Assembly: GCA_050952465.1 (NCBI GenBank) | Contig: JBMNKZ010000014.1 | Span: 26,613 to 90,612, forward strand | DNA length: 64,000 nt | Direction of reading: 5' to 3' | Origin: Bacillota bacterium | GTDB taxonomy: Bacteria > Bacillota > Dehalobacteriia > Dehalobacteriales > Dehalobacteriaceae | In this document: in pieces, positions 56,178 to 64,000 of the stretch | How positions within the stretch are numbered: position 1 is the stretch's first letter | How the letters are laid out: each line of letters starts with the position of its first letter | Made by a program: the position numbers and the translations under genes | The notes under the pieces: generated by a model | Told to the model about the DNA's origin: nothing | The model's database searches: none | What the model saw: the letters and a program-made list of their open reading frames with translations, nothing else

Positions 56178-57314
56178 ATGGAAACACGTCAACAGGTACC
56201 GCCTTGCCCAAATGGTACCATCTACACAATTAGGTCAGGAGATACATTTTTCAGCTTGGCCAGTCGCTTTAACACAAGCGTAGATGCGATTGTTGCTGCA
56301 AACCCCAATGTTGATCCCAACAACCTGCAGGTAGGTCAGCAAATCTGCATCCCGGTTCCGCCTACACCAGGTCCATGCCCCGGCGGTACTATTTATACTA
56401 TTAGAGCAGGTGACACCTTATTCGCCCTGGCTAATCGTTTTAACACTACCGTCAACGCCATTCTCGAGGCTAACCCAGGCCTTGACCCTGACAACCTGCA
56501 GGTAGGACGAAGAATCTGCATCCCAGTTCCGCCTACACCAGGTCCATGCCCGGGTGGCACCATTTATACCATTAGAGCTGGGGATACCCTATTTGCTTTG
56601 GCTAATCGCTTTAACACCACTGTCAATGCCATTGTTGAGGCTAACCCTAACATTGACCCCAACAGACTGCAGGTAGGCCAGCAGATCTGCATCCCGGTTC
56701 CACCTACACCTGAATGCCCCGGTGGTACTATTTATACTATCCGGGCAGGTGACACCTTATTTGCTCTGGCTAACCGGTTTAACACTACCGTTAATGCCAT
56801 TCTCCGGGCAAACCCAGGTCTTGACCCCAACAGACTGGAGGTAGGCCAGAGAATCTGCATCCCGGTTCCGCCTGCACCTGAATGCCCGGGACGCACCTAT
56901 ACTATCAGAGCAGGAGATACTTTCTTTAGCATTGCTCGGCGCTTTGGCTTTACTGTGCAGCAGCTATTAGATGCTAACCCCGATGTTGATCCCGATCAAC
57001 TGCAAGTCGGCCAGGTAATATGCTTGCCGCCCTCTCCAAACGGGCCCGTCCCATGTCCTGGAGGGAGAATTTATGTAATAAGAGCCGGCGATACTTTAGT
57101 GGGCATTGCGAACCGAGCAGGGATTACCCTAAGACAATTGCTGGCAGCTAATCCCCAAATAACGGATCCGGATGTTATTTTTATCGGTCAGTCCATTTGT
57201 ATCCCCGGTAACATGAGAGGAGATATTGGGGAAAACTATGCAGATTCCCCATATCAGGGCCAGATGTTTTGTCCCTTTGCACCATTCTGCTCTATGTTTT
57301 TCAGACCTTTCTAA
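56178..57314 (+). CDS. Six-LysM-domain protein without signal peptide (spore-coat/cortex-associated candidate)
   Basis: Six repeats of CPGGTIYTIRAGDT(L/F)F.(L/I)A.RF..TV..(I/L)..ANP..DP..LQVGQ.ICIP, joined by VPPTP linkers. No N-terminal hydrophobic leader. Confidence 0.8.
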   Translation: METRQQVPPCPNGTIYTIRSGDTFFSLASRFNTSVDAIVAANPNVDPNNLQVGQQICIPVPPTPGPCPGGTIYTIRAGDTLFALANRFNTTVNAILEANPGLDPDNLQVGRRICIPVPPTPGPCPGGTIYTIRAGDTLFALANRFNTTVNAIVEANPNIDPNRLQVGQQICIPVPPTPECPGGTIYTIRAGDTLFALANRFNTTVNAILRANPGLDPNRLEVGQRICIPVPPAPECPGRTYTIRAGDTFFSIARRFGFTVQQLLDANPDVDPDQLQVGQVICLPPSPNGPVPCPGGRIYVIRAGDTLVGIANRAGITLRQLLAANPQITDPDVIFIGQSICIPGNMRGDIGENYADSPYQGQMFCPFAPFCSMFFRPF

Positions 57315-57349
57315 TAGTTCTGTAGTTGATGCTTTGAAAACATCATTTA

Positions 57350-57370
57350 GGGGCGATTCATGAATCGCCC
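57350..57370. repeat. REP-like palindromic element
   Basis: ggggcgattcatgaatcgccc, downstream of the LysM gene. Confidence 0.6.
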
Positions 57371-57400
57371 AATGAGTTGAAACCGTTAGCTAACATGAAA

Positions 57401-57437
57401 GGGTTATGATGGATATTAGTCCCCATAACCCTTTTTT
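57401..57437 (+). terminator. Hairpin terminator between convergent LysM gene and lasso ABC exporter
   Basis: gggttatg-N15-cataaccc followed by TTTTTT. Confidence 0.5.
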
Positions 57438-57477
57438 CGTGTTCCCGCTGCTTTTTTATTCCACTTACCTCCACCTT

Positions 57478-59196
57478 TTATTTTAAATTCAAAGTCAGAT
57501 CCTCATAATCTCTTATTTCTTTTACAGTCCCTTGATCCAAGACAATGATCTGATCGGCATTTTTTATGGTAGAAAGCCTATGGGTAATTATTAAAATCGT
57601 CAATTTCCCATGTAAACTTTCAATAGCTTTTTGAATCCGCTTTTCATTCTCCCCATCCAATGAGTTTGTTGCCTCATCCAGAATAAGCAAAGCCGGTTTT
57701 CTGAGTAATGCCCTTGCTAAAACAATCCGCTGCCTTTCGCCCCCTGAAAGACGCACTCCTCTGTCCCCAACCCGTGTGTCCAAGCCTTCAGGTAAACGGG
57801 ATATAAAATCATCTATCGCCGCCAATTTCAAGGCCTGCCAGATTTCTTTTTCCTTTGCTGAAGGATGAGACCAAAGCATATTATCCCGAAGGGAAGCATT
57901 GAATAAAAAAGCATCTTGAGGTACATAACCAATATTCTTGCGCCATAAATGAACATTTATATCCTTCAAGGGTACCCTATCAACTAAGATCAACCCTTGT
58001 TGGGGAGTAAGTATTCCGGTGATTAAATCTGCTACCGTGCTTTTCCCTGAGCCGGATACCCCAACAAGGGCAGTAGTGCTTCCATTAGGAATGGTAAAAG
58101 ATAAATTTTTAACCGCATAAATAGGATTCTCTGAGTTGGAGTTATAACTAAAGAAAACATTTTTAAATTCTATGCCTTCCTGCAAATCCTTTTGGATTAA
58201 AGATTGTCCTTTAAGATAAATTTCTTTTTCTTTCATACACTCCCTTTCAAAATCCATGACCCCCAAAAAAGCCGGGAGCATCATGGCCACATGCTGCAAC
58301 CCCCCTTGAAAAGAAGAAAATCTAGGCCAGAGACGGGCAAAAATCACAACGATCAACAAGATTTCCTCAGGTTGGGTATGAAAAAAATTTACCATACCAT
58401 AAAAAAAGATGCTGATAAAAACCGCCGCGCCGGCCTTATATAGCATCTGAGTCCCGCTTTGAATCCGATTAAATTGGACAAAATTATTTTCAATATTTTT
58501 TCTTAATTCAATGAATTTAACGATATGCATTTCTTCCATACCACAGCTTTTTACTTCCTTAATCCCGTTTAGATGCTCAGTGATGGCAAAGAAAAGATCC
58601 CGGTTATGTTTGGATAAAGTTGCCCCCATTTCCTTGACTTGGCGCACGTGTTTTTGCATTAAAACGGAAAAGATCAACCCTCCCCCGATGACCACCAAGG
58701 TTAAGATGGGAGACAAGAAAAAAGCAATGGCTATTTGAATCACTCCTATTATTACAATAGCGATTAATTGAAAAAGAAACTGGGTCCCACCGGCCACCCG
58801 CCCTAGTTCTGCAATTAAGATATTGGTTAGGTCAGACTTTTTTCTGGCAGCTAAATAACCCCATTTCGCATAGGCCAATCCTTGAAAAATCCTAATACTT
58901 AAAAAGCTATGAAAAGATTGCTGAATCCGCGTATTCAGATTGGATTGGTAGCGTTGTAATCCACTTTGCGTCAGAATTAACCCAATATAAATTAAAAGCA
59001 CTACCGGCAAGCTAAGAATCAGGTCTAATGGGGCAGAAGACTCTTGTCCGATACCGGCGAAATGAAGAAGCGGTATTAAAAGTAATATACCAATCCCCTC
59101 AAGAGTACCCAGAACTACCATTAAAAACACATTAAGAATAATCTTCCCGCGGGCAAACCGGAATAATTCTTGAATATAGTTACTAAATACCTTCAC
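57478..59196 (-). CDS. ABC transporter permease/ATPase (lasso peptide exporter/immunity, McjD-like role)
   Basis: An N-terminal 6-TM domain, Walker A GVSGSGKST, signature LSGGERQR and Walker B LLILDEATN. GTG start 3 nt after the upstream stop. Confidence 0.85.
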   Translation of the reverse strand: MKVFSNYIQELFRFARGKIILNVFLMVVLGTLEGIGILLLIPLLHFAGIGQESSAPLDLILSLPVVLLIYIGLILTQSGLQRYQSNLNTRIQQSFHSFLSIRIFQGLAYAKWGYLAARKKSDLTNILIAELGRVAGGTQFLFQLIAIVIIGVIQIAIAFFLSPILTLVVIGGGLIFSVLMQKHVRQVKEMGATLSKHNRDLFFAITEHLNGIKEVKSCGMEEMHIVKFIELRKNIENNFVQFNRIQSGTQMLYKAGAAVFISIFFYGMVNFFHTQPEEILLIVVIFARLWPRFSSFQGGLQHVAMMLPAFLGVMDFERECMKEKEIYLKGQSLIQKDLQEGIEFKNVFFSYNSNSENPIYAVKNLSFTIPNGSTTALVGVSGSGKSTVADLITGILTPQQGLILVDRVPLKDINVHLWRKNIGYVPQDAFLFNASLRDNMLWSHPSAKEKEIWQALKLAAIDDFISRLPEGLDTRVGDRGVRLSGGERQRIVLARALLRKPALLILDEATNSLDGENEKRIQKAIESLHGKLTILIITHRLSTIKNADQIIVLDQGTVKEIRDYEDLTLNLK

Positions 59197-59199
59197 TGT

Positions 59200-60468
59200 T
59201 TATTTTCTCCTCGTATCACCGATAATTCTTCTTTTTAGCCAAGTCATCGGCCGAATGAAATAATATAAAGGATATAAGGGGTCAGGGAGAGCTATTAGCT
59301 TAAAGTCCCTTTCGATGGGTTGAATTAGGGAATGGAGATAGGAAAACTTAAGTTTCCAGCCGCTCCTGATTCGGAAACGATAACCGTGGGTCTCTATAAA
59401 ACTTTTCCAGTAGGAAAAGCCAATTTCTTTTGGTGCCTCCTTCGCCCGGGAAATGAGACAGTCAATGACTTCTTCAGCCAGTCTTACCGCCTTTTTGTCT
59501 TTAATAGCAGCCTCAAGTATTTTATCAGGTAAGTCCACGTGAAAGAGCTGATCCAATAACAAGAAGGTTTGATGGACAAGAATTTTCATCCCTGCACACT
59601 CCGCCAATCTCATGATCTTGTCCCAATCAACTTCCGTAACAAGGAGAAATTTTTCCATATCTATGAGCCAACGGAGCCGCTCCCATTTGTGGCTACCCCC
59701 ATGTACCACAAGATAGAGAAACCACTCCTCATCGGGCAACACAGGAACGGAAAAGCCGCTAATCTCTACTGTACCCAGGTCTTTATCTCTGGAAAATGTC
59801 GAAAACCTTAGATCAATTTGATGCATTTTCCAATGAAGTTCCAGACAGGTTCCCCGCTCTTGATGAAGATAAAGATTGTGATGATATTTATTTAGATACA
59901 CCTTTGTTTGGCGGGGAGTAAAGGAGATCCCCCTCGTTCTTTGTTCATAGCCTTCTTCTCGTAAAATATTTTCCGCTTTTTCCAGATCCTTTAAAGGTAC
60001 TAATAGATCAATATCCTTTGACATTCTTAGGGAAACATCCCCATATATTTTCTGAGCTAAAGGTGCTCCTTTTAAGACCAGGGTAGAAATCCCCTTTTCT
60101 TGAAAAATACGCAGGATCCTAATCATCTCCCCCGTGAGACCTATGGATCTAATGGTATTTTCCTCATATTTCAATTTCAAAAAATGCATCACATGGGGAG
60201 AGATTGACTGAATTTTTAGGTTGCTTAACGTTTTATATACCATGGGAAATACCCGGTGATGCCAAGTCATCTTTAAGAACAAGTCCCAATCTACCGGCCG
60301 TGATAAGAAAAATTCAACTTTTTCCCTTGACTGAGCAATATGAAACTCATTAGAATCATTAGCATTAATAGGCGCACCGGATTTACCAAACTCATTTATG
60401 CCCCGGGAAATTTCCATTAATAGGAGCAGTTCCGGAGTAAATCCTTTAAGCCCCATACCATAAGACAA
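59200..60468 (-). CDS. Nucleotidyltransferase-family protein (lasso tailoring candidate)
   Basis: 422 aa. LKG...YGD...SKDIDLLV is the pattern of the 'uncharacterised nucleotidyltransferase' family often found in lasso/RiPP clusters. It sits between the B2 and ABC genes. Confidence 0.6.
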   Translation of the reverse strand: MSYGMGLKGFTPELLLLMEISRGINEFGKSGAPINANDSNEFHIAQSREKVEFFLSRPVDWDLFLKMTWHHRVFPMVYKTLSNLKIQSISPHVMHFLKLKYEENTIRSIGLTGEMIRILRIFQEKGISTLVLKGAPLAQKIYGDVSLRMSKDIDLLVPLKDLEKAENILREEGYEQRTRGISFTPRQTKVYLNKYHHNLYLHQERGTCLELHWKMHQIDLRFSTFSRDKDLGTVEISGFSVPVLPDEEWFLYLVVHGGSHKWERLRWLIDMEKFLLVTEVDWDKIMRLAECAGMKILVHQTFLLLDQLFHVDLPDKILEAAIKDKKAVRLAEEVIDCLISRAKEAPKEIGFSYWKSFIETHGYRFRIRSGWKLKFSYLHSLIQPIERDFKLIALPDPLYPLYYFIRPMTWLKRRIIGDTRRK

Positions 60469-60513
60469 AGAACCACCTCTTATCTCTCACAGGTATAACG
60501 TCTTATTAAATGT

Positions 60514-60972
60514 TTAACCGCGGGTAATTCTTTCCTCCCCAAAAGAAGATAAGGAAAGATAATCGTTCCATCCCTGATTCCCGGTAATAATCATATTCCC
60601 CGCCCTAAGCCAGGCATGGGCTGCCATCTCCTCCACGGTTTCCGGTTTATTAACGCCTAAATACAGGGTATTACTAATCCCTTTTCTTCTCAAAAGAATT
60701 TTTCCTGTAATCCCCTGCACTAAGCATTTACTCTCCCAAGGGGTATGCTTGCTTGCCCAAAGAATTATTCGGCTAATTCTTAAACAAATAACCCTCTGAG
60801 CAGGTGTCAGCTTTTGACCGGATTCGACCCCTTGCTCCCCTAAAAAGTGCGCGATCCACCTGAAAGGAAGGCACAAAACAGCCAAGCGTACCAATCCAGT
60901 TAAGAAAAAAATCTGAAAAAATTCCCACCTTTCCTGCCCAGGCAAAAGCAGCCACTTTTTAATCTTGCTCAT
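60514..60972 (-). CDS. Lasso peptide leader peptidase B2 (transglutaminase-like Cys protease)
   Basis: About 152 aa with the catalytic-type Cys context ESKCLVQG and His context HAWL. It overlaps the B1 3' end. Confidence 0.8.
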   Translation of the reverse strand: MSKIKKWLLLPGQERWEFFQIFFLTGLVRLAVLCLPFRWIAHFLGEQGVESGQKLTPAQRVICLRISRIILWASKHTPWESKCLVQGITGKILLRRKGISNTLYLGVNKPETVEEMAAHAWLRAGNMIITGNQGWNDYLSLSSFGEERITRG

Positions 60973-61255
60973 CAAGGCAAATTATTCCTTCCCGGTGCAT
61001 TTTATTTAAAAAAAGAGAAACATCCCTGAGACAGGTTTCTTCTTCCACCTGGTACTCTTTCATTAATTCGTCCATTAATTCTTGAATAGTGATAGGCCGA
61101 GCCAGCAACTCCCAGATAGAGCTTCCTACCCCATTAAGGCAGTAATATTTCCCTCTTTTGATACTCATCATTGCTTTTTCGCCTTCTAGATCGCTGCTGA
61201 TAATTCCGTCCTGCCGAGAAATTATAGTTTCTCTGGAGATTTTTGCTCCTTTCAT
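60959..61255 (-). CDS. Lasso peptide B1 (PqqD-like RRE leader-binding protein)
   Basis: About 98 aa. Y.LNGVGSSIWELL....TIQELMDEL..EY.V..E....DV..FL..M...G is the PqqD-family pattern. ATG 61255 lies 1 nt after the kinase stop. Confidence 0.75.
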   Translation of the reverse strand: MKGAKISRETIISRQDGIISSDLEGEKAMMSIKRGKYYCLNGVGSSIWELLARPITIQELMDELMKEYQVEEETCLRDVSLFLNKMHREGIICLDEQD

Positions 61256-61256
61256 G

Positions 61257-62204
61257 CTAAACAATCCCCCTATTTACCAGATCTTGTTCTATTAAAGTTT
61301 TAATTTCTTTGACTGTTAACAAGTGCGCCGGCCTCATAACTCTGGAAACAGCCACTTTCTCAGCCAAAGCAACTGCTTGGTGAAAAATATTTTCTGCATA
61401 TCCCATTACATCTGCAAACCCATATCTGTAAACATTATTTAGAATCAATTCCAATTTATCTACACCAGAAAGGGCAAAAAGAGATACTTTTTCGCAATTT
61501 GCTTTTCTCATTTCATAAATGGCAGTTAGTCTTTGAGGCATCTGGCAAAAGTCTCTTTCTAAAGGGACAGCATACTTATCAATCTGCCCGCTAATCTGGG
61601 AAAAATGATCAGCCTTTTCCCCCAAGGATTCCAGGCTGTCTTGCCACAGTTTCTGCTGAGGATAGGAGGGGTAGACCCAGGGATCACCTTCCCCGTTAAA
61701 ATAAATGGGGGCAATATCATCGGTTAGAATCTCAGACCCATCCTGACGAAAAATGGCAGCTAAAGTTGACTTCCCGGCTTTTTGGAGGCCTGTGATGATA
61801 AAACATTTTTCTTTAACCTTAACAGCACTACCATGGATGGGAAGAATGCCTCTTTGCCAAAGCAGGGCTCCAAAAGCCGATCCCAAAAGAAATAAACGTA
61901 CTTCCTTCATTTCCGCCGTTGCAGCCGGCTCAATAATAATCTCCCGGCCTTTTTTTATCAGGTAGCTGCCTACATTCCTAATCCGGAGTATTAATTGATC
62001 TTTTTTGCCTTGATAATATCCTTTGTTTTTCCATGCTTCGCCAGAATCCTTGGGCACTTTGCCAAGGGTGATTAACACCTCGGATGCCCCTATTGGGCAG
62101 GTCTTAAGTTCCGGCACCGGAATCTCTGATGCAATCTTTACCCCGAAAGCCTGATAGCAATATGATGCTGTATCTGGATAGGTATTCTCATGAAGTATAT
62201 GCAT
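61257..62204 (-). CDS. HPr-kinase-like serine kinase (lasso precursor kinase candidate)
   Basis: 315 aa. HGSAV...FIITGLQKAGKSTLAA is a P-loop like that of HprK-family kinases. Its start overlaps the precursor 3' end by 17 nt. Confidence 0.7.
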   Translation of the reverse strand: MHILHENTYPDTASYCYQAFGVKIASEIPVPELKTCPIGASEVLITLGKVPKDSGEAWKNKGYYQGKKDQLILRIRNVGSYLIKKGREIIIEPAATAEMKEVRLFLLGSAFGALLWQRGILPIHGSAVKVKEKCFIITGLQKAGKSTLAAIFRQDGSEILTDDIAPIYFNGEGDPWVYPSYPQQKLWQDSLESLGEKADHFSQISGQIDKYAVPLERDFCQMPQRLTAIYEMRKANCEKVSLFALSGVDKLELILNNVYRYGFADVMGYAENIFHQAVALAEKVAVSRVMRPAHLLTVKEIKTLIEQDLVNRGIV

Positions 62205-62325
62205 CTATATCCTCTTGAAAGGCAATGTCAACTAAACCATACCCGCCCCCATTTTCTGTCTTTCTTATCTCTATTTCGGTAATCTGGGGACTGATCCATG
62301 GTTTTTTTATTGTTTCTTGAGCCAT
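62188..62325 (-). CDS. Lasso peptide precursor (45 aa), not in ORF track
   Basis: RBS AGGAGGG, 8 nt, then an ATG giving MAQETIKKPWISPQITEIEIRKTENGGGYGLVDIAFQEDIDAYTS. The leader carries aromatic-xx-P-x-I...T-x. The core is Gly-rich with Asp 8-9 residues in, and the C-terminal residue is Ser. Confidence 0.75.
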   Translation of the reverse strand: MAQETIKKPWISPQITEIEIRKTENGGGYGLVDIAFQEDIDAYTS

Positions 62326-62330
62326 TTTTA

Positions 62331-64000
62331 TTACCCTCCTTCTCCCTTGACTACACCCAAAAACCTGCTAAAAATAATACTTCTAAGTAGCATGGTGACA
62401 CTAGGATCGGTAAAAGCTATTGAGCTAACCAAATTCATGCTCTGGCCTTTTTTGTGAATCCTAGCTACATCAAGGTATTTTCTTTCTTCAGGCAGTTGAC
62501 CGATTTTCTTAATTTCCTGTAGGATTTCTTTTTCCAAAGGTAAGAGCCTTTGTACATAATCTGCACTTTGCAGACCACGTACCTGATCATTTAATCTAAT
62601 TTTATCCGGTAGGATTCCCGCCATCGCCCGTCTGATTAAGGATCTCTCCTGCCCCTTTCGGATAAATTGTTCCACAGGCACGCTCAGGCAAAACTCTATT
62701 ACCCTTTTATCAATGGCAGGATCCCTGATGATCAGGTTGCGGGATAATGCTATTTTGGTATAAACAGCACTCAAATGACTTAAATGATAAGGAGATAGCA
62801 TCATCTGCCGCTGGTGAAAGGCATTTAATTTTTTTTGATAATAAGGGTCATAATTGAAACTCTTAAACCTCTTCTTCATTCCTATAAGATGGGCAAAGTC
62901 TGGGTTTACCGGGGATAATGCAAAAGGTCTTTCCCAATTGGCTTCCCCCCGGTGCAGCAATAACTGAATTTCATAGGGAACTAAGGATTTAGCCACATCC
63001 AAACCAAGTTTCAGAGGATGTTTATTCTTTACCTTCCCAAAAGCCCTGATCTCCTGAATCAGTTTAATCCATTTACCGGAAAGAAAAAAAGAGATACTGC
63101 ATGGAAGAAAACTTCCGTAAGAAATAGTGGTATTCCCCACTCCCCCGGTGAGCATCGTCCCTACTCCCTTTTTTTGGGCCTTTTCTAAAATCCCGTCAAT
63201 CCAAAAAAGATTCTCACATATTTTATAGGGTTGTTCCAAAACCTTTAAATAATGTGCTGTATCACTTAGGGCATTTCTACCGGGAAAGGAATGGTAGTTA
63301 AAGAGAATGTTTTCTTTGTTTTCTCTCATCACCTCAATATAGGGGGTTTCGTCGGCAATTCGACTTCGAGGAATTCCGGTACTATCAAAACCCTTGATGG
63401 GAATAGCCGTAAAAGCATGGAGTTCTTTGTTTGCCTTTTTTAACTCATCTGCAGCTAAACAGGCTATAGCGGCAGAATCAAGCCCCCCGCTGAGCATGAT
63501 CCCAAGGGGTTTGTTGCTTCGAAGCCGGCACCTTACAGCTTGTCCTAACACCTGCCGAAAAGCTTCCTCATATTCCCTGTCTGATTTAAGTTTTAATTCT
63601 TTTTGCTTTTCTATGACCCAGTATGCCTGCTTTTTTATGCTGCCTTTACTGACTGTCAGACTATGTCCTGACGGCAGCATTAGGATATCTCGGTAAAGAG
63701 TCAGTTCCGGATCTATCTGATGTATTACTGAGGGAATGGAAAGAAAGTCACAAATCCATGCTTCTGAATAGTCCCGGCTAATTTCTTCTAGGGCAAATAA
63801 AGGGTTAATCAAAGTAGCAAAGGCAAATAACCGAGGGGAAGCGTAATAATACAAGGTTCGGTTTCCGGTGTGGTCTACGGCACAAAACATTTCCTTTCGT
63901 TTAGTGTCCCAGATGGCAAAGGCAAAATCCCCTAATAGATAGGAGGGGCATTTCCTGCCCCATTTCTCATAGGCCCGGAGTATCAGGTCACTATCAGGAA
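62331..64000 (-). CDS. Lasso peptide cyclase (asparagine-synthetase-like, C protein); 5' end outside the window
   Basis: PP-loop motif MLSGGLDSAAIA. The frame stays open upstream of the first Met to the window edge (...GDFAFAIWDTKRKEMF...), matching the AsnB-like N-domain. Confidence 0.85.
   Translation of the reverse strand, partial: PDSDLILRAYEKWGRKCPSYLLGDFAFAIWDTKRKEMFCAVDHTGNRTLYYYASPRLFAFATLINPLFALEEISRDYSEAWICDFLSIPSVIHQIDPELTLYRDILMLPSGHSLTVSKGSIKKQAYWVIEKQKELKLKSDREYEEAFRQVLGQAVRCRLRSNKPLGIMLSGGLDSAAIACLAADELKKANKELHAFTAIPIKGFDSTGIPRSRIADETPYIEVMRENKENILFNYHSFPGRNALSDTAHYLKVLEQPYKICENLFWIDGILEKAQKKGVGTMLTGGVGNTTISYGSFLPCSISFFLSGKWIKLIQEIRAFGKVKNKHPLKLGLDVAKSLVPYEIQLLLHRGEANWERPFALSPVNPDFAHLIGMKKRFKSFNYDPYYQKKLNAFHQRQMMLSPYHLSHLSAVYTKIALSRNLIIRDPAIDKRVIEFCLSVPVEQFIRKGQERSLIRRAMAGILPDKIRLNDQVRGLQSADYVQRLLPLEKEILQEIKKIGQLPEERKYLDVARIHKKGQSMNLVSSIAFTDPSVTMLLRSIIFSRFLGVVKGEGG

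What the first reader, a model, noticed from the sequence alone, without database searches (positions are those of the whole stretch)
62188..62325. Unannotated lasso precursor with an atypical leader/core junction
The small ORF lies below the 60-aa track cutoff. It has a strong RBS inside the cyclase 3' end, and its last 17 nt overlap the kinase start. The leader (W10-x-x-P13-x-I15 ... T23-E24) fits the aromatic-xx-P-x-L/I ... T(-2) recognition pattern. That places cleavage after E24 and gives the core NGGGYGLVDIAFQEDIDAYTS. The core would then start with Asn and close an N1-D9 nine-residue ring. Alternatively the core could start at Gly26 with a G1-D8 ring, but then Thr sits at -3. Either option is unusual. 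The tail is very acidic (E, D, D) and ends in -YTS.
Basis: partly seen in the sequence, partly recalled or inferred. Interest (0 to 1): 0.7.

Follow-up and report, generated by a model that had tools for sequence, protein, structure and literature searches.

The report
Paeninodin-type lasso peptide precursor gene
The 45-codon ORF is a real, conserved precursor gene for a lasso peptide of the known phosphorylated (paeninodin-like) type, most likely starting with asparagine, which is rare among characterised lasso peptides but common in this gene family.

Summary
A 45-aa ORF (62188-62325, minus strand) sits between a lasso cyclase and an HPr-kinase-like gene, with an AAGGAGGG ribosome-binding site and a 17-nt overlap with the kinase start.

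It is the precursor (A) gene of a C-A-K-B1-B2-N-D lasso cluster, the paeninodin/pseudomycoidin architecture. I recovered 18 further distinct relatives. All have WxxPx[I/L/V/M], Thr 13 residues after the Trp, Gly-Gly at core positions 3-4 and a C-terminal Ser. They evolve under purifying selection.

A profile comparison with canonical paeninodin-family precursors aligns without gaps: T23 with Thr(-2), N25 with Ala1, D33 with Asp9. The Gly26 start is disfavoured.

- Asn at predicted position 1 occurs in 8 of 71 other kinase-linked precursors.
- Glu(-1) occurs in 17 of those 71.
- Asn1 was shown experimentally in metanodin (2025).

The invariant C-terminal Ser is the expected phosphorylation site, probably followed by hexosylation. 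NCBI's paeninodin HMM misses this subfamily, and the public record calls the gene "hypothetical protein". Verdict: a new member of a known kind, of modest interest.

The parts
62188..62325 (-). Lasso precursor gene (A), 45 aa plus stop
   Evidence: ORF confirmed. 18 further distinct relatives found. Under purifying selection. hhalign to paeninodin-family precursors: 94.7% probability, E 5.6e-8.
62254..62325 (-). Leader, residues 1-24: MAQETIKKPWISPQITEIEIRKTE. W(-15)xxP(-12)xI(-10) is the RRE-binding motif; T23 is Thr(-2); E24 is -1.
   Evidence: W-to-T offset is +13 in 19/19 subfamily members and 70/71 other kinase-linked precursors. W-15 is the residue number of the Trp in the paeninodin-like PbaA leader (PMC13381572).
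62191..62253 (-). Predicted core, residues 25-45: NGGGYGLVDIAFQEDIDAYTS. Predicted Asn1-Asp9 macrolactam, 12-residue acidic tail, C-terminal Ser as phospho-acceptor.
   Evidence: Ungapped profile alignment puts N25 on Ala1 and D33 on Asp9. C-terminal Ser is present in 19/19 subfamily members. Role of the Ser is taken from PMC9266682 and PMC6993621. The junction is inferred, not shown.
62334..62341 (-). Ribosome-binding site AAGGAGGG for the precursor, inside the last codons of the cyclase gene
   Evidence: Read directly from the sequence.
62331..64000 (-). Lasso cyclase (C), Asn-synthase-like. The 5' end runs off the window; the protein is 660 aa on the full contig.
   Evidence: Pfam Asn_synthase. 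Best NCBIfam model is NF033535 lasso cyclase, E 6.8e-84 for the window part and 2.7e-134 (449 bits) for the full-length protein. Both are below the curated cutoff of 525 bits. Reading frame stays open to the window end. Full gene seen in L092.
61257..62204 (-). HPr-kinase-like lasso tailoring kinase (K), 315 aa. Its start overlaps the precursor by 17 nt.
   Evidence: 1215 homologues, with precomputed Pfam hits PF07475/PF27840. H124, K145, D162 and D163 are invariant, matching the His-Lys-Asp-Asp catalytic motif of lasso kinases (PMC9266682). Only a weak direct HMM hit (TIGR04355, E 1.4e-4).
60959..61255 (-). B1, PqqD-like RiPP recognition element. 98 aa from the ATG start.
   Evidence: PF05402, E 1.8e-18. 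NF033536 lasso PqqD chaperone at 99.6 bits, above the cutoff of 80.
60514..60972 (-). B2, transglutaminase-like leader peptidase, 152 aa
   Evidence: PF13471. NF033537 lasso B2 at 86.5 bits, above the cutoff of 33.
59200..60468 (-). N, uncharacterised nucleotidyltransferase in the position of PsmN, 422 aa
   Evidence: PF14907 NTP_transf_5, E 1.7e-61. It sits between B2 and D, as psmN does (PMC6993621).
57478..59196 (-). D, ABC exporter with fused permease and ATPase, 572 aa
   Evidence: PF00664 plus PF00005.

Best explanation
The ORF is the precursor (A) gene of a class II, paeninodin-like lasso peptide cluster ordered C-A-K-B1-B2-N-D.

Proposed pathway:
1. The precursor is translated from its own strong RBS. 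The kinase is probably translationally coupled to it through the 17-nt overlap.
2. B1 (a PqqD-type RRE) binds the leader motif W(-15)xxP(-12)xI(-10).
3. The HPr-kinase-like enzyme phosphorylates, perhaps more than once, the side chain of the C-terminal Ser45 on the linear precursor.
4. B2 cuts after E24, guided by Thr23 at -2.
5. The cyclase joins the new alpha-amine of Asn25 to the side chain of Asp33. This gives a 9-residue Asn1-Asp9 macrolactam threaded by the acidic 12-residue tail (IAFQEDIDAYTS).
6. The PsmN-like nucleotidyltransferase adds hexose to the phospho-Ser.
7. The ABC transporter exports the product.

Shown here: the gene is real and conserved, all enzyme families are present, and the junction register matches the paeninodin family. 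Inferred from characterised relatives: the cleavage site, the ring, the phosphorylation and glycosylation, and the threading.
For: - Gene content and order are established.
- 18 further distinct relatives of the precursor were found: L001, L003, L082 and L087 (1168-1305), plus P0122-P0127, P0129, P0131-P0135, P0138 and P0139 (the set is listed). Where enough contig is available, each sits next to K or C.
- Columns invariant in the 11-sequence alignment are K7, W10, P13, T23, G27, G28, D33 and the C-terminal Ser. In the full set the W-to-T spacing and the terminal Ser remain 19/19, while K7 and P13 each have one exception (P0135, P0124).
- Codon analysis gives pN 0.07-0.27 against pS 0.56-1.0.
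- W-to-T spacing of +13 holds in 19/19 subfamily members and 70/71 other kinase-linked precursors. Position 2 is Gly in 16/19 and 57/71 respectively, while position 1 varies (A, G, S, N, L, Y, E...).
- hhalign of the subfamily against canonical paeninodin-type precursors is ungapped, with 94.7% probability and E 5.6e-8. It aligns T23 to T(-2), N25 to A1 and D33 to D9.
- Kinase residues H124, K145, D162 and D163 are invariant, matching the catalytic H-K-D-D motif (PMC9266682).
- PadeK and PsmK phosphorylate the C-terminal Ser of the precursor, and PsmN is required for hexose addition on the phospho-Ser (PMC6993621; PMC9266682).
- Asn1 is chemically competent for ring closure, as metanodin shows (PMC12670498).
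Against: - No product has been observed for this peptide or any member of its subfamily. The cleavage site and the ring are assigned by homology only.
- NCBIfam NF033524 (paeninodin family lasso peptide) does not detect this peptide or its D. acetoxidans relative even at E<=10. The subfamily is therefore divergent.
- Ring-size logic alone cannot exclude a Gly26 start: rings of 7-8 residues would still be possible in every member.
- Two insertion variants (P0125, P0139) lack an acceptor at position 8 or 9 in the aligned column. They would need Glu7 or another residue.
- Unmodified pseudomycoidin was reported not to be threaded (PMC6993621), so lasso topology is not guaranteed.
- The cyclase and kinase score below the curated NCBIfam cutoffs.
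Confidence: 0.8

Rival explanations
1. Same precursor, but the core starts at Gly26. Cleavage is after Asn25, Thr sits at -3, and the ring is an 8-residue Gly1-Asp8.
For: Gly is the most common first residue of characterised lasso peptides (background knowledge; PMC4289311). Position T+3 is Gly in 16/19 subfamily members, and every member would keep a feasible 7-8-residue ring.
Against: - This would break the Thr(-2) rule and the W(-15) register shared by 70/71 other kinase-linked precursors.
- It contradicts the ungapped profile alignment to paeninodin-type precursors.
- P0127 would then start with Asn anyway, and L003/P0137 would start with Glu.
- Across the wider family, Gly at T+3 behaves as core position 2, following a variable position 1.
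Confidence: 0.1
2. The peptide is processed and modified but the final product is not a threaded lasso. It would be either a branched-cyclic peptide or a linear polyphosphorylated peptide like the LPP family.
For: Pseudomycoidin made without the kinase and PsmN is not threaded (PMC6993621). Linear polyphosphorylated peptides share the kinase, NTP-transferase, RRE and ABC genes with paeninodin clusters (PMC13381572).
Against: - A lasso cyclase and a B2 peptidase are both present.
- No Pfam family of signal peptidase I (the LPP hallmark enzyme) is listed for any gene in the locus.
- The leader carries WxxP, as paeninodin-type lasso leaders do, not the LPP motif YxxPxVLxHQxIxFETxxS.
- The conserved acceptor Asp lies at position 8 or 9 in 17/19 members.
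- F12 and Y19 in the tail could act as steric plugs; this last point is my inference.
Confidence: 0.08
3. The ORF is a chance open frame in the cyclase-kinase junction and is not translated.
For: It is short (45 codons) and has no Pfam or NCBIfam hit.
Against: - Strong RBS at the right distance.
- 18 further distinct relatives in homologous clusters, with invariant functional residues.
- Synonymous sites are saturated while the protein sequence is conserved.
- Significant profile match to a curated precursor family.
Confidence: 0.02

Closest known systems
Pseudomycoidin cluster psmCAKB1B2ND (Bacillus pseudomycoides; PMC6993621)
   Same: - Same seven gene families, named in the order C, A, K, B1, B2, with N between B2 and D.
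- Precursor has a C-terminal Ser and an acceptor at core position 9.
- The kinase (poly)phosphorylates the terminal Ser.
- PsmN is required for adding one or two hexoses to the phospho-Ser.
   Different: - Core is unrelated in sequence, with Ala1-Glu9 there and predicted Asn1-Asp9 here.
- The window precursor does not match NCBIfam NF033524, the paeninodin-family precursor model (I did not have the PsmA sequence to test it against the same model).
- The host here is an uncultured anaerobic Bacillota MAG, not a Bacillus.
Paeninodin (Paenibacillus dendritiformis; Zhu et al. 2016, summarised in PMC9266682)
   Same: - Class II lasso peptide with split B1/B2.
- An HPrK-like kinase acts on the C-terminal Ser of the linear precursor.
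- The canonical paeninodin-family precursors recovered here share the WxxPxL leader, the same W-to-Thr(-2) spacing and a 9-residue ring closed on Asp.
   Different: - The paeninodin cluster lacks the nucleotidyltransferase.
- Its core starts with Ala (Gly at position 2 and Met at -1 are the majority in canonical family members).
- Here the junction is T-E|N-G-G-G.
Metanodin (soil metagenome, Steroidobacterales; PMC12670498)
   Same: - Its authors report it as the first lasso peptide experimentally shown to have Asn as ring-forming residue 1.
- Thr is at -2.
- As there, the precursor was missed by an automatic annotation model (antiSMASH there; NCBIfam NF033524 here).
   Different: - Gammaproteobacterial origin.
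- I saw no sequence relationship to the peptide here.
Desulfofarcimen (Desulfotomaculum) acetoxidans DSM 771 lasso clusters (Letzel et al. 2014, PMC4289311)
   Same: The closest cultured-organism relative. The same precursor subfamily is present (P0124, core NGGGIGIDIASQGVDMSS), with cyclase, kinase, B1, B2 and N genes.
   Different: The gene order is A-C-K-B1-B2-N. [quoted passage not shown] No product is described in that paper.

Membership tests
Lasso peptide biosynthetic gene cluster (class II, split-B type) | Asn-synthase-like macrolactam cyclase (C) | tested here: met
   PF00733, E 2.1e-29. The best NCBIfam model is NF033535 lasso cyclase, E 2.7e-134 for the full-length protein from L092, though its 449 bits fall below the curated 525-bit cutoff.
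Lasso peptide biosynthetic gene cluster (class II, split-B type) | PqqD-like RRE (B1) and transglutaminase-like leader peptidase (B2) | tested here: met
   NF033536 at 99.6 bits (cutoff 80) and NF033537 at 86.5 bits (cutoff 33). Pfam PF05402 and PF13471.
Lasso peptide biosynthetic gene cluster (class II, split-B type) | Precursor with a [Y/W]xxPx[L/V/I] leader motif, Thr at -2, and Asp/Glu at core position 7-9 | tested here: met
   W10xxP13xI15, T23 and D33 (core position 9 counted from N25) are read directly from the sequence. They are conserved in 19/19 relatives.
Lasso peptide biosynthetic gene cluster (class II, split-B type) | Mature product has a threaded macrolactam ([1]rotaxane) topology | not testable with these tools
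   Needs MS/MS, protease or heat stability assays, or NMR on the product.
Paeninodin-like (kinase-tailored) lasso peptides | HPrK-like kinase with the His-Lys-Asp-Asp catalytic motif, encoded in the cluster | tested here: met
   H124, K145, D162 and D163 are invariant in an alignment of 28 homologues. The motif comes from PMC9266682. Direct HMM hits are only weak (TIGR04355, E 1.4e-4).
Paeninodin-like (kinase-tailored) lasso peptides | C-terminal Ser on the precursor as phospho-acceptor | tested here: met
   Ser45 is the last residue. The C-terminal Ser is present in 19/19 subfamily members. The 71 other precursors were selected by a pattern that requires a terminal Ser, so they do not count as independent support.
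Paeninodin-like (kinase-tailored) lasso peptides | Trp (not Tyr) in the leader motif, at position -15 | tested here: met
   W10 is at -15 if cleavage follows E24. The W-15 numbering and near-invariant Trp are reported for paeninodin-like leaders in PMC13381572. The +13 spacing to Thr holds in 70/71 relatives.
Paeninodin-like (kinase-tailored) lasso peptides | Match to the curated precursor model NCBIfam NF033524 (lasso_PadeA_fam) | tested here: not met
   No hit even at E<=10 for the window peptide or for P0124. Positive controls from L068 and L035 scored 66 and 45 bits. Profile-profile homology is nevertheless significant (hhalign 94.7%, E 5.6e-8). This makes it a divergent sister subfamily rather than a member of the curated model.
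Paeninodin-like (kinase-tailored) lasso peptides | Actual phosphorylation, and PsmN-type hexosylation, of the product | not testable with these tools
   Needs expression with and without K and N, followed by mass spectrometry.
Linear polyphosphorylated peptides (LPP; PMC13381572) | SipW-like signal peptidase I, a YxxPxVLxHQxIxFETxxS leader, and no cyclase | tested here: not met
   A cyclase and B2 are present. No Pfam signal-peptidase family is listed for any gene in the locus. The leader has WxxP and lacks the LPP motif.

The most novel reading that the evidence does not exclude
The conserved T-E-N-G-G-G junction (Asn in 16/19 members, followed by Gly in 15 of those 16) may be more than a tolerated variant. 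Asn-Gly is the sequence most prone to succinimide formation. The subfamily might therefore use Asn side-chain chemistry. One possibility is succinimide-mediated backbone cleavage that exposes Gly26, giving a genuine Thr(-3) junction partly independent of the peptidase. Another is in-ring deamidation or isoAsp formation. Either would be a processing step not described for lasso peptides.
Probability: 0.06. Interest if true: 0.65.

Novelty: new member of a known kind. Interest (0 to 1): 0.3.

Why it matters
This adds a concrete, testable Asn1 lasso precursor from anaerobic Bacillota. It also defines a 19-member "TENGGG" subfamily that NCBI's curated paeninodin precursor model misses, so these genes are left as "hypothetical protein".

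The subfamily includes peptides from Desulfofarcimen acetoxidans, Ca. Formimonas warabiya and a Dehalobacterium MAG. [quoted passage not shown]

The subfamily would be a natural test set for two questions. First, how do B2 peptidases and cyclases accommodate a polar, non-small first residue? Second, does the phospho-hexose cap serve as the steric lock? It does not change the current understanding of lasso biosynthesis.

Tried and rejected
- Searching the precursor alone in the word-indexed protein database returned only itself. The full-HMMER representative search and a profile search were needed to find relatives.
- Pfam and NCBIfam give no hit for the peptide, even at E<=10.
- The search for related loci with the precursor alignment on metagenome contigs matched 295 patterns, but none passed the tblastn confirmation. 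The query is probably too short.
- My own degenerate DNA pattern for a position-1-unbiased metagenome scan contained one N too many (66 nt instead of 65). It was therefore out of frame and returned a single chance match, L094. Both metagenome scans are spent, so the subfamily census remains at 19 distinct peptides.
- Ring-size logic was tried as a way to choose the junction. It was rejected as indecisive, because both registers give rings of 7-9 residues in every member.
- The paeninodin JBC paper (PMC4919450) is not held. Its content is cited through reviews.
- I found no published frequency for predicted Asn1.
- The promoter/terminator scan of 57000-64000 showed no terminator-like site between A and K, and nothing else informative.
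- The spurious-ORF and LPP (linear peptide) readings were considered and rejected, for the reasons given under the rival explanations.

Full report
**1. The observation**

The ORF is on the minus strand at 62188-62325. It encodes MAQETIKKPWISPQITEIEIRKTENGGGYGLVDIAFQEDIDAYTS.

- The sequence AAGGAGGG (62341-62334) precedes the ATG (62325). Its GGAGG core is 9 nt upstream. It lies within the last codons of the upstream gene, which ends ...GEGG with TAA at 62333-62331.
- The downstream gene starts at ATG 62204, 17 nt before the ORF's TGA stop (62190-62188).
- That downstream start is credible. It leaves 13 residues before the conserved YxYxAFG motif, as in the consensus of 28 homologues. It also has its own AAGAGG six nt upstream.

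Every factual element of the finding is therefore correct. The one correction concerns "unannotated". The identical peptide exists in NCBI as [quoted passage not shown], and the 45-aa gene is listed among the called genes on the JGI and Logan contigs shown. It is called as a gene but has no functional annotation.

**2. Context**

All the relevant genes are on the minus strand.

| Gene | Window coordinates | Evidence |
|---|---|---|
| C, Asn-synthase-like lasso cyclase | 62331 to beyond the window end (frame open at 64000; 660 aa on the full contig) | PF00733; best NCBIfam model NF033535, E 2.7e-134 |
| A, precursor | 62188-62325 | this finding |
| K, HPr-kinase-like protein | 61257-62204 | 1215 homologues, many carrying PF07475/PF27840 |
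| B1, PqqD-type RRE | 60959-61255 | NF033536, above cutoff |
| B2, peptidase | 60514-60972 | NF033537, above cutoff |
| N, NTP_transf_5 nucleotidyltransferase | 59200-60468 | PF14907, E 1.7e-61 |
| D, ABC exporter | 57478-59196 | PF00664 plus PF00005 |

C-A-K-B1-B2-N-D corresponds to the gene set and arrangement described for the pseudomycoidin cluster, and to the paeninodin cluster plus the N gene (PMC6993621).

**3. Is the ORF a real gene?**

The single-sequence word-indexed search found only the peptide itself. A full HMMER scan of 1.8 billion representatives found seven short relatives. A profile search and inspection of loci fetched through the kinase brought the set to 19 distinct peptides (listed).

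These include peptides from Desulfofarcimen acetoxidans DSM 771, Ca. Formimonas warabiya and a Dehalobacterium MAG. Where enough contig is available, they lie directly upstream of the kinase (L001, L082, L087, L089, L090) or upstream of the cyclase (L086, and the first precursor of L087/L088).

- In the 11-sequence alignment the invariant columns are K7, W10, P13, T23, G27, G28, D33 and the C-terminal Ser. In the full set of 19 the W-to-T spacing and the terminal Ser still hold, while K7 and P13 each have one exception.
- Over the ungapped 24-codon block, synonymous sites are near saturation (pS 0.56-1.0), while non-synonymous differences are few (pN 0.07-0.27; pooled ratio 0.29).

The ORF is a translated gene under purifying selection.

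**4. Where is the leader/core junction?**

Three lines of evidence agree.

(a) Spacing. The Trp of WxxP lies 13 residues before a Thr in 19/19 subfamily members and in 70/71 other precursors found beside homologous kinases. The search pattern allowed offsets of 13-16. With cleavage one residue after that Thr, the Trp is at -15. This is the numbering reported for the paeninodin-like PbaA leader (PMC13381572).

(b) Residue pattern. Across the wider family, the residue at T+2 is variable: A 20, G 13, S 10, N 8, L 4, Y 4, E 3, and others. The residue at T+3 is Gly in 57/71. The "Gly26" of the window therefore behaves as the conserved core position 2, not position 1. Within the subfamily, T+2 is N 16, H 1, L 1, C 1, and T+3 is G 16, N 1, A 1, E 1. 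A Gly26-type start would thus give Asn1 and Glu1 in two members anyway.

(c) Homology. hhalign of the subfamily profile against 23 canonical paeninodin-type precursors gives an ungapped 36-column alignment, with 94.7% probability and E 5.6e-8. It superimposes T23 on Thr(-2), E24 on Met(-1), N25 on Ala1, G26 on Gly2 and D33 on Asp9. Pseudomycoidin was shown experimentally to close an Ala1-Glu9 ring, and paeninodin a ring between its N-terminal Ala and an inner Asp (PMC6993621).

Ring-size arguments alone do not discriminate, because both registers give rings of 7-9 residues.

**5. How atypical is the junction?**

- Glu at -1 occurs in 17/71 other kinase-linked precursors.
- Asn at predicted position 1 occurs in 8/71 of them. 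Examples are the Bacillaceae T-M|NGPGNANAD... peptides; the one tested (from L035) is accepted by NCBIfam NF033524.
- Asn1 was demonstrated experimentally in metanodin in 2025. [quoted passage not shown]

What is distinctive is that this subfamily has a conserved T-E-N-G-G-G junction (Asn1 in 16/19). The two members tested (window and P0124) are also invisible to the curated precursor model, with no NF033524 hit at E<=10. That fits with the gene being left as "hypothetical".

**6. Mechanism**

The steps below are inferred from characterised relatives.

- B1 binds W(-15)xxP(-12)xI(-10).
- The kinase carries the invariant H124, K145, D162 and D163, which match the catalytic His-Lys-Asp-Asp motif (PMC9266682). 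It phosphorylates the side chain of the invariant C-terminal Ser on the linear precursor, possibly several times.
- B2 cleaves after E24.
- C forms the Asn1-Asp9 isopeptide around the acidic tail.
- The PsmN-like enzyme adds one or two hexoses to the phospho-Ser. This may act as a steric cap (PMC6993621).
- D exports the product.

The strong RBS on A and the A/K overlap suggest high precursor translation, with the kinase coupled to it. Predicted masses are given.

**7. Rivals**

- A Gly26 start has confidence 0.1, for the reasons in section 4.
- A non-threaded or linear product has confidence 0.08. The cyclase and B2 are present, the LPP hallmarks are absent, and the acceptor Asp is conserved. 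Against that, unmodified pseudomycoidin is not threaded.
- A spurious ORF has confidence 0.02 and is refuted.

**8. Comparison and novelty**

The cluster works like pseudomycoidin and paeninodin. It meets every sequence-testable defining feature of the kinase-tailored lasso family except a match to the curated precursor HMM. It is best described as a divergent sister subfamily.

[quoted passage not shown] None of the papers I searched or read describes a product for any member of this subfamily.

Verdict: a new member of a known kind.

The most novel reading still open, at about 6%, is that the conserved Asn-Gly junction supports succinimide-type chemistry or a genuine Thr(-3) cleavage.

**9. 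Dead ends**

Two metagenome scans produced nothing usable. In one search the short query failed tblastn confirmation. In one search my pattern had one N too many, so it was out of frame. The JBC paeninodin paper was not available. I found no published census of predicted Asn1 frequency.

Noticed in passing
window 56178-57314 (+): A 378-aa protein made of about six near-identical tandem LysM-type modules (PCPGGTIYTIRAGDTLFALANRFNTTVNAI..ANP..DP..LQVGQ.ICIP). It is convergent with the end of the lasso operon. Any link to the cluster is unknown.
   Followed up: no
L087 1168-1305 and 7001-7147 (Ca. Formimonas warabiya); the same arrangement in L088: One cluster carries two precursor genes of the same subfamily with different predicted first residues. 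The core LGGGFGGFD... lies upstream of C, and the core HGGGYDGFD... lies upstream of K. They are separated by a 1063-aa ORF with no Pfam hit, between C and the second precursor.
   Followed up: partly
L081 1260-2909: In the closest kinase relative (69% identity), the B2 peptidase and the NTP_transf_5 nucleotidyltransferase are called as one fused 549-aa protein.
   Followed up: no
L091 7001-7150: An orphan precursor-like gene of the subfamily with an insertion in the ring region (NGGGFSEKETDIFWDIAGQ...). tblastn finds no lasso enzymes within 7 kb. It sits next to an ICMT/PEMT-type methyltransferase. A similar insertion variant (P0139, L090) is followed by a kinase.
   Followed up: partly
L082 69-830 and 4787-5260: This related cluster (63% kinase identity) has an IS200-type Y1 transposase immediately upstream of the cyclase. 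It has a 157-aa ORF with no Pfam hit in place of the nucleotidyltransferase.
   Followed up: no
L035 5706-5885, L040 5699-5884, L054 5745-5903, L063 5657-5812, L076 5643-5798: These Bacillaceae loci carry a second, longer precursor next to the kinase (T-M/L|NGPGNANADCFD...C...S). It has Asn at predicted core position 1 and two Cys, which may form a disulfide. An AGPG-type precursor lies further upstream in four of these loci (L035, L040, L076; MGPG in L054); L063 has an LGETG type instead.
   Followed up: no
window 62331-64000 (-): The ORF list reports the cyclase as a 519-aa ORF starting at ATG 63890. In fact the frame is open to the window end, and the real protein is 660 aa. The listed start is an artefact of the window boundary.
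   Followed up: yes
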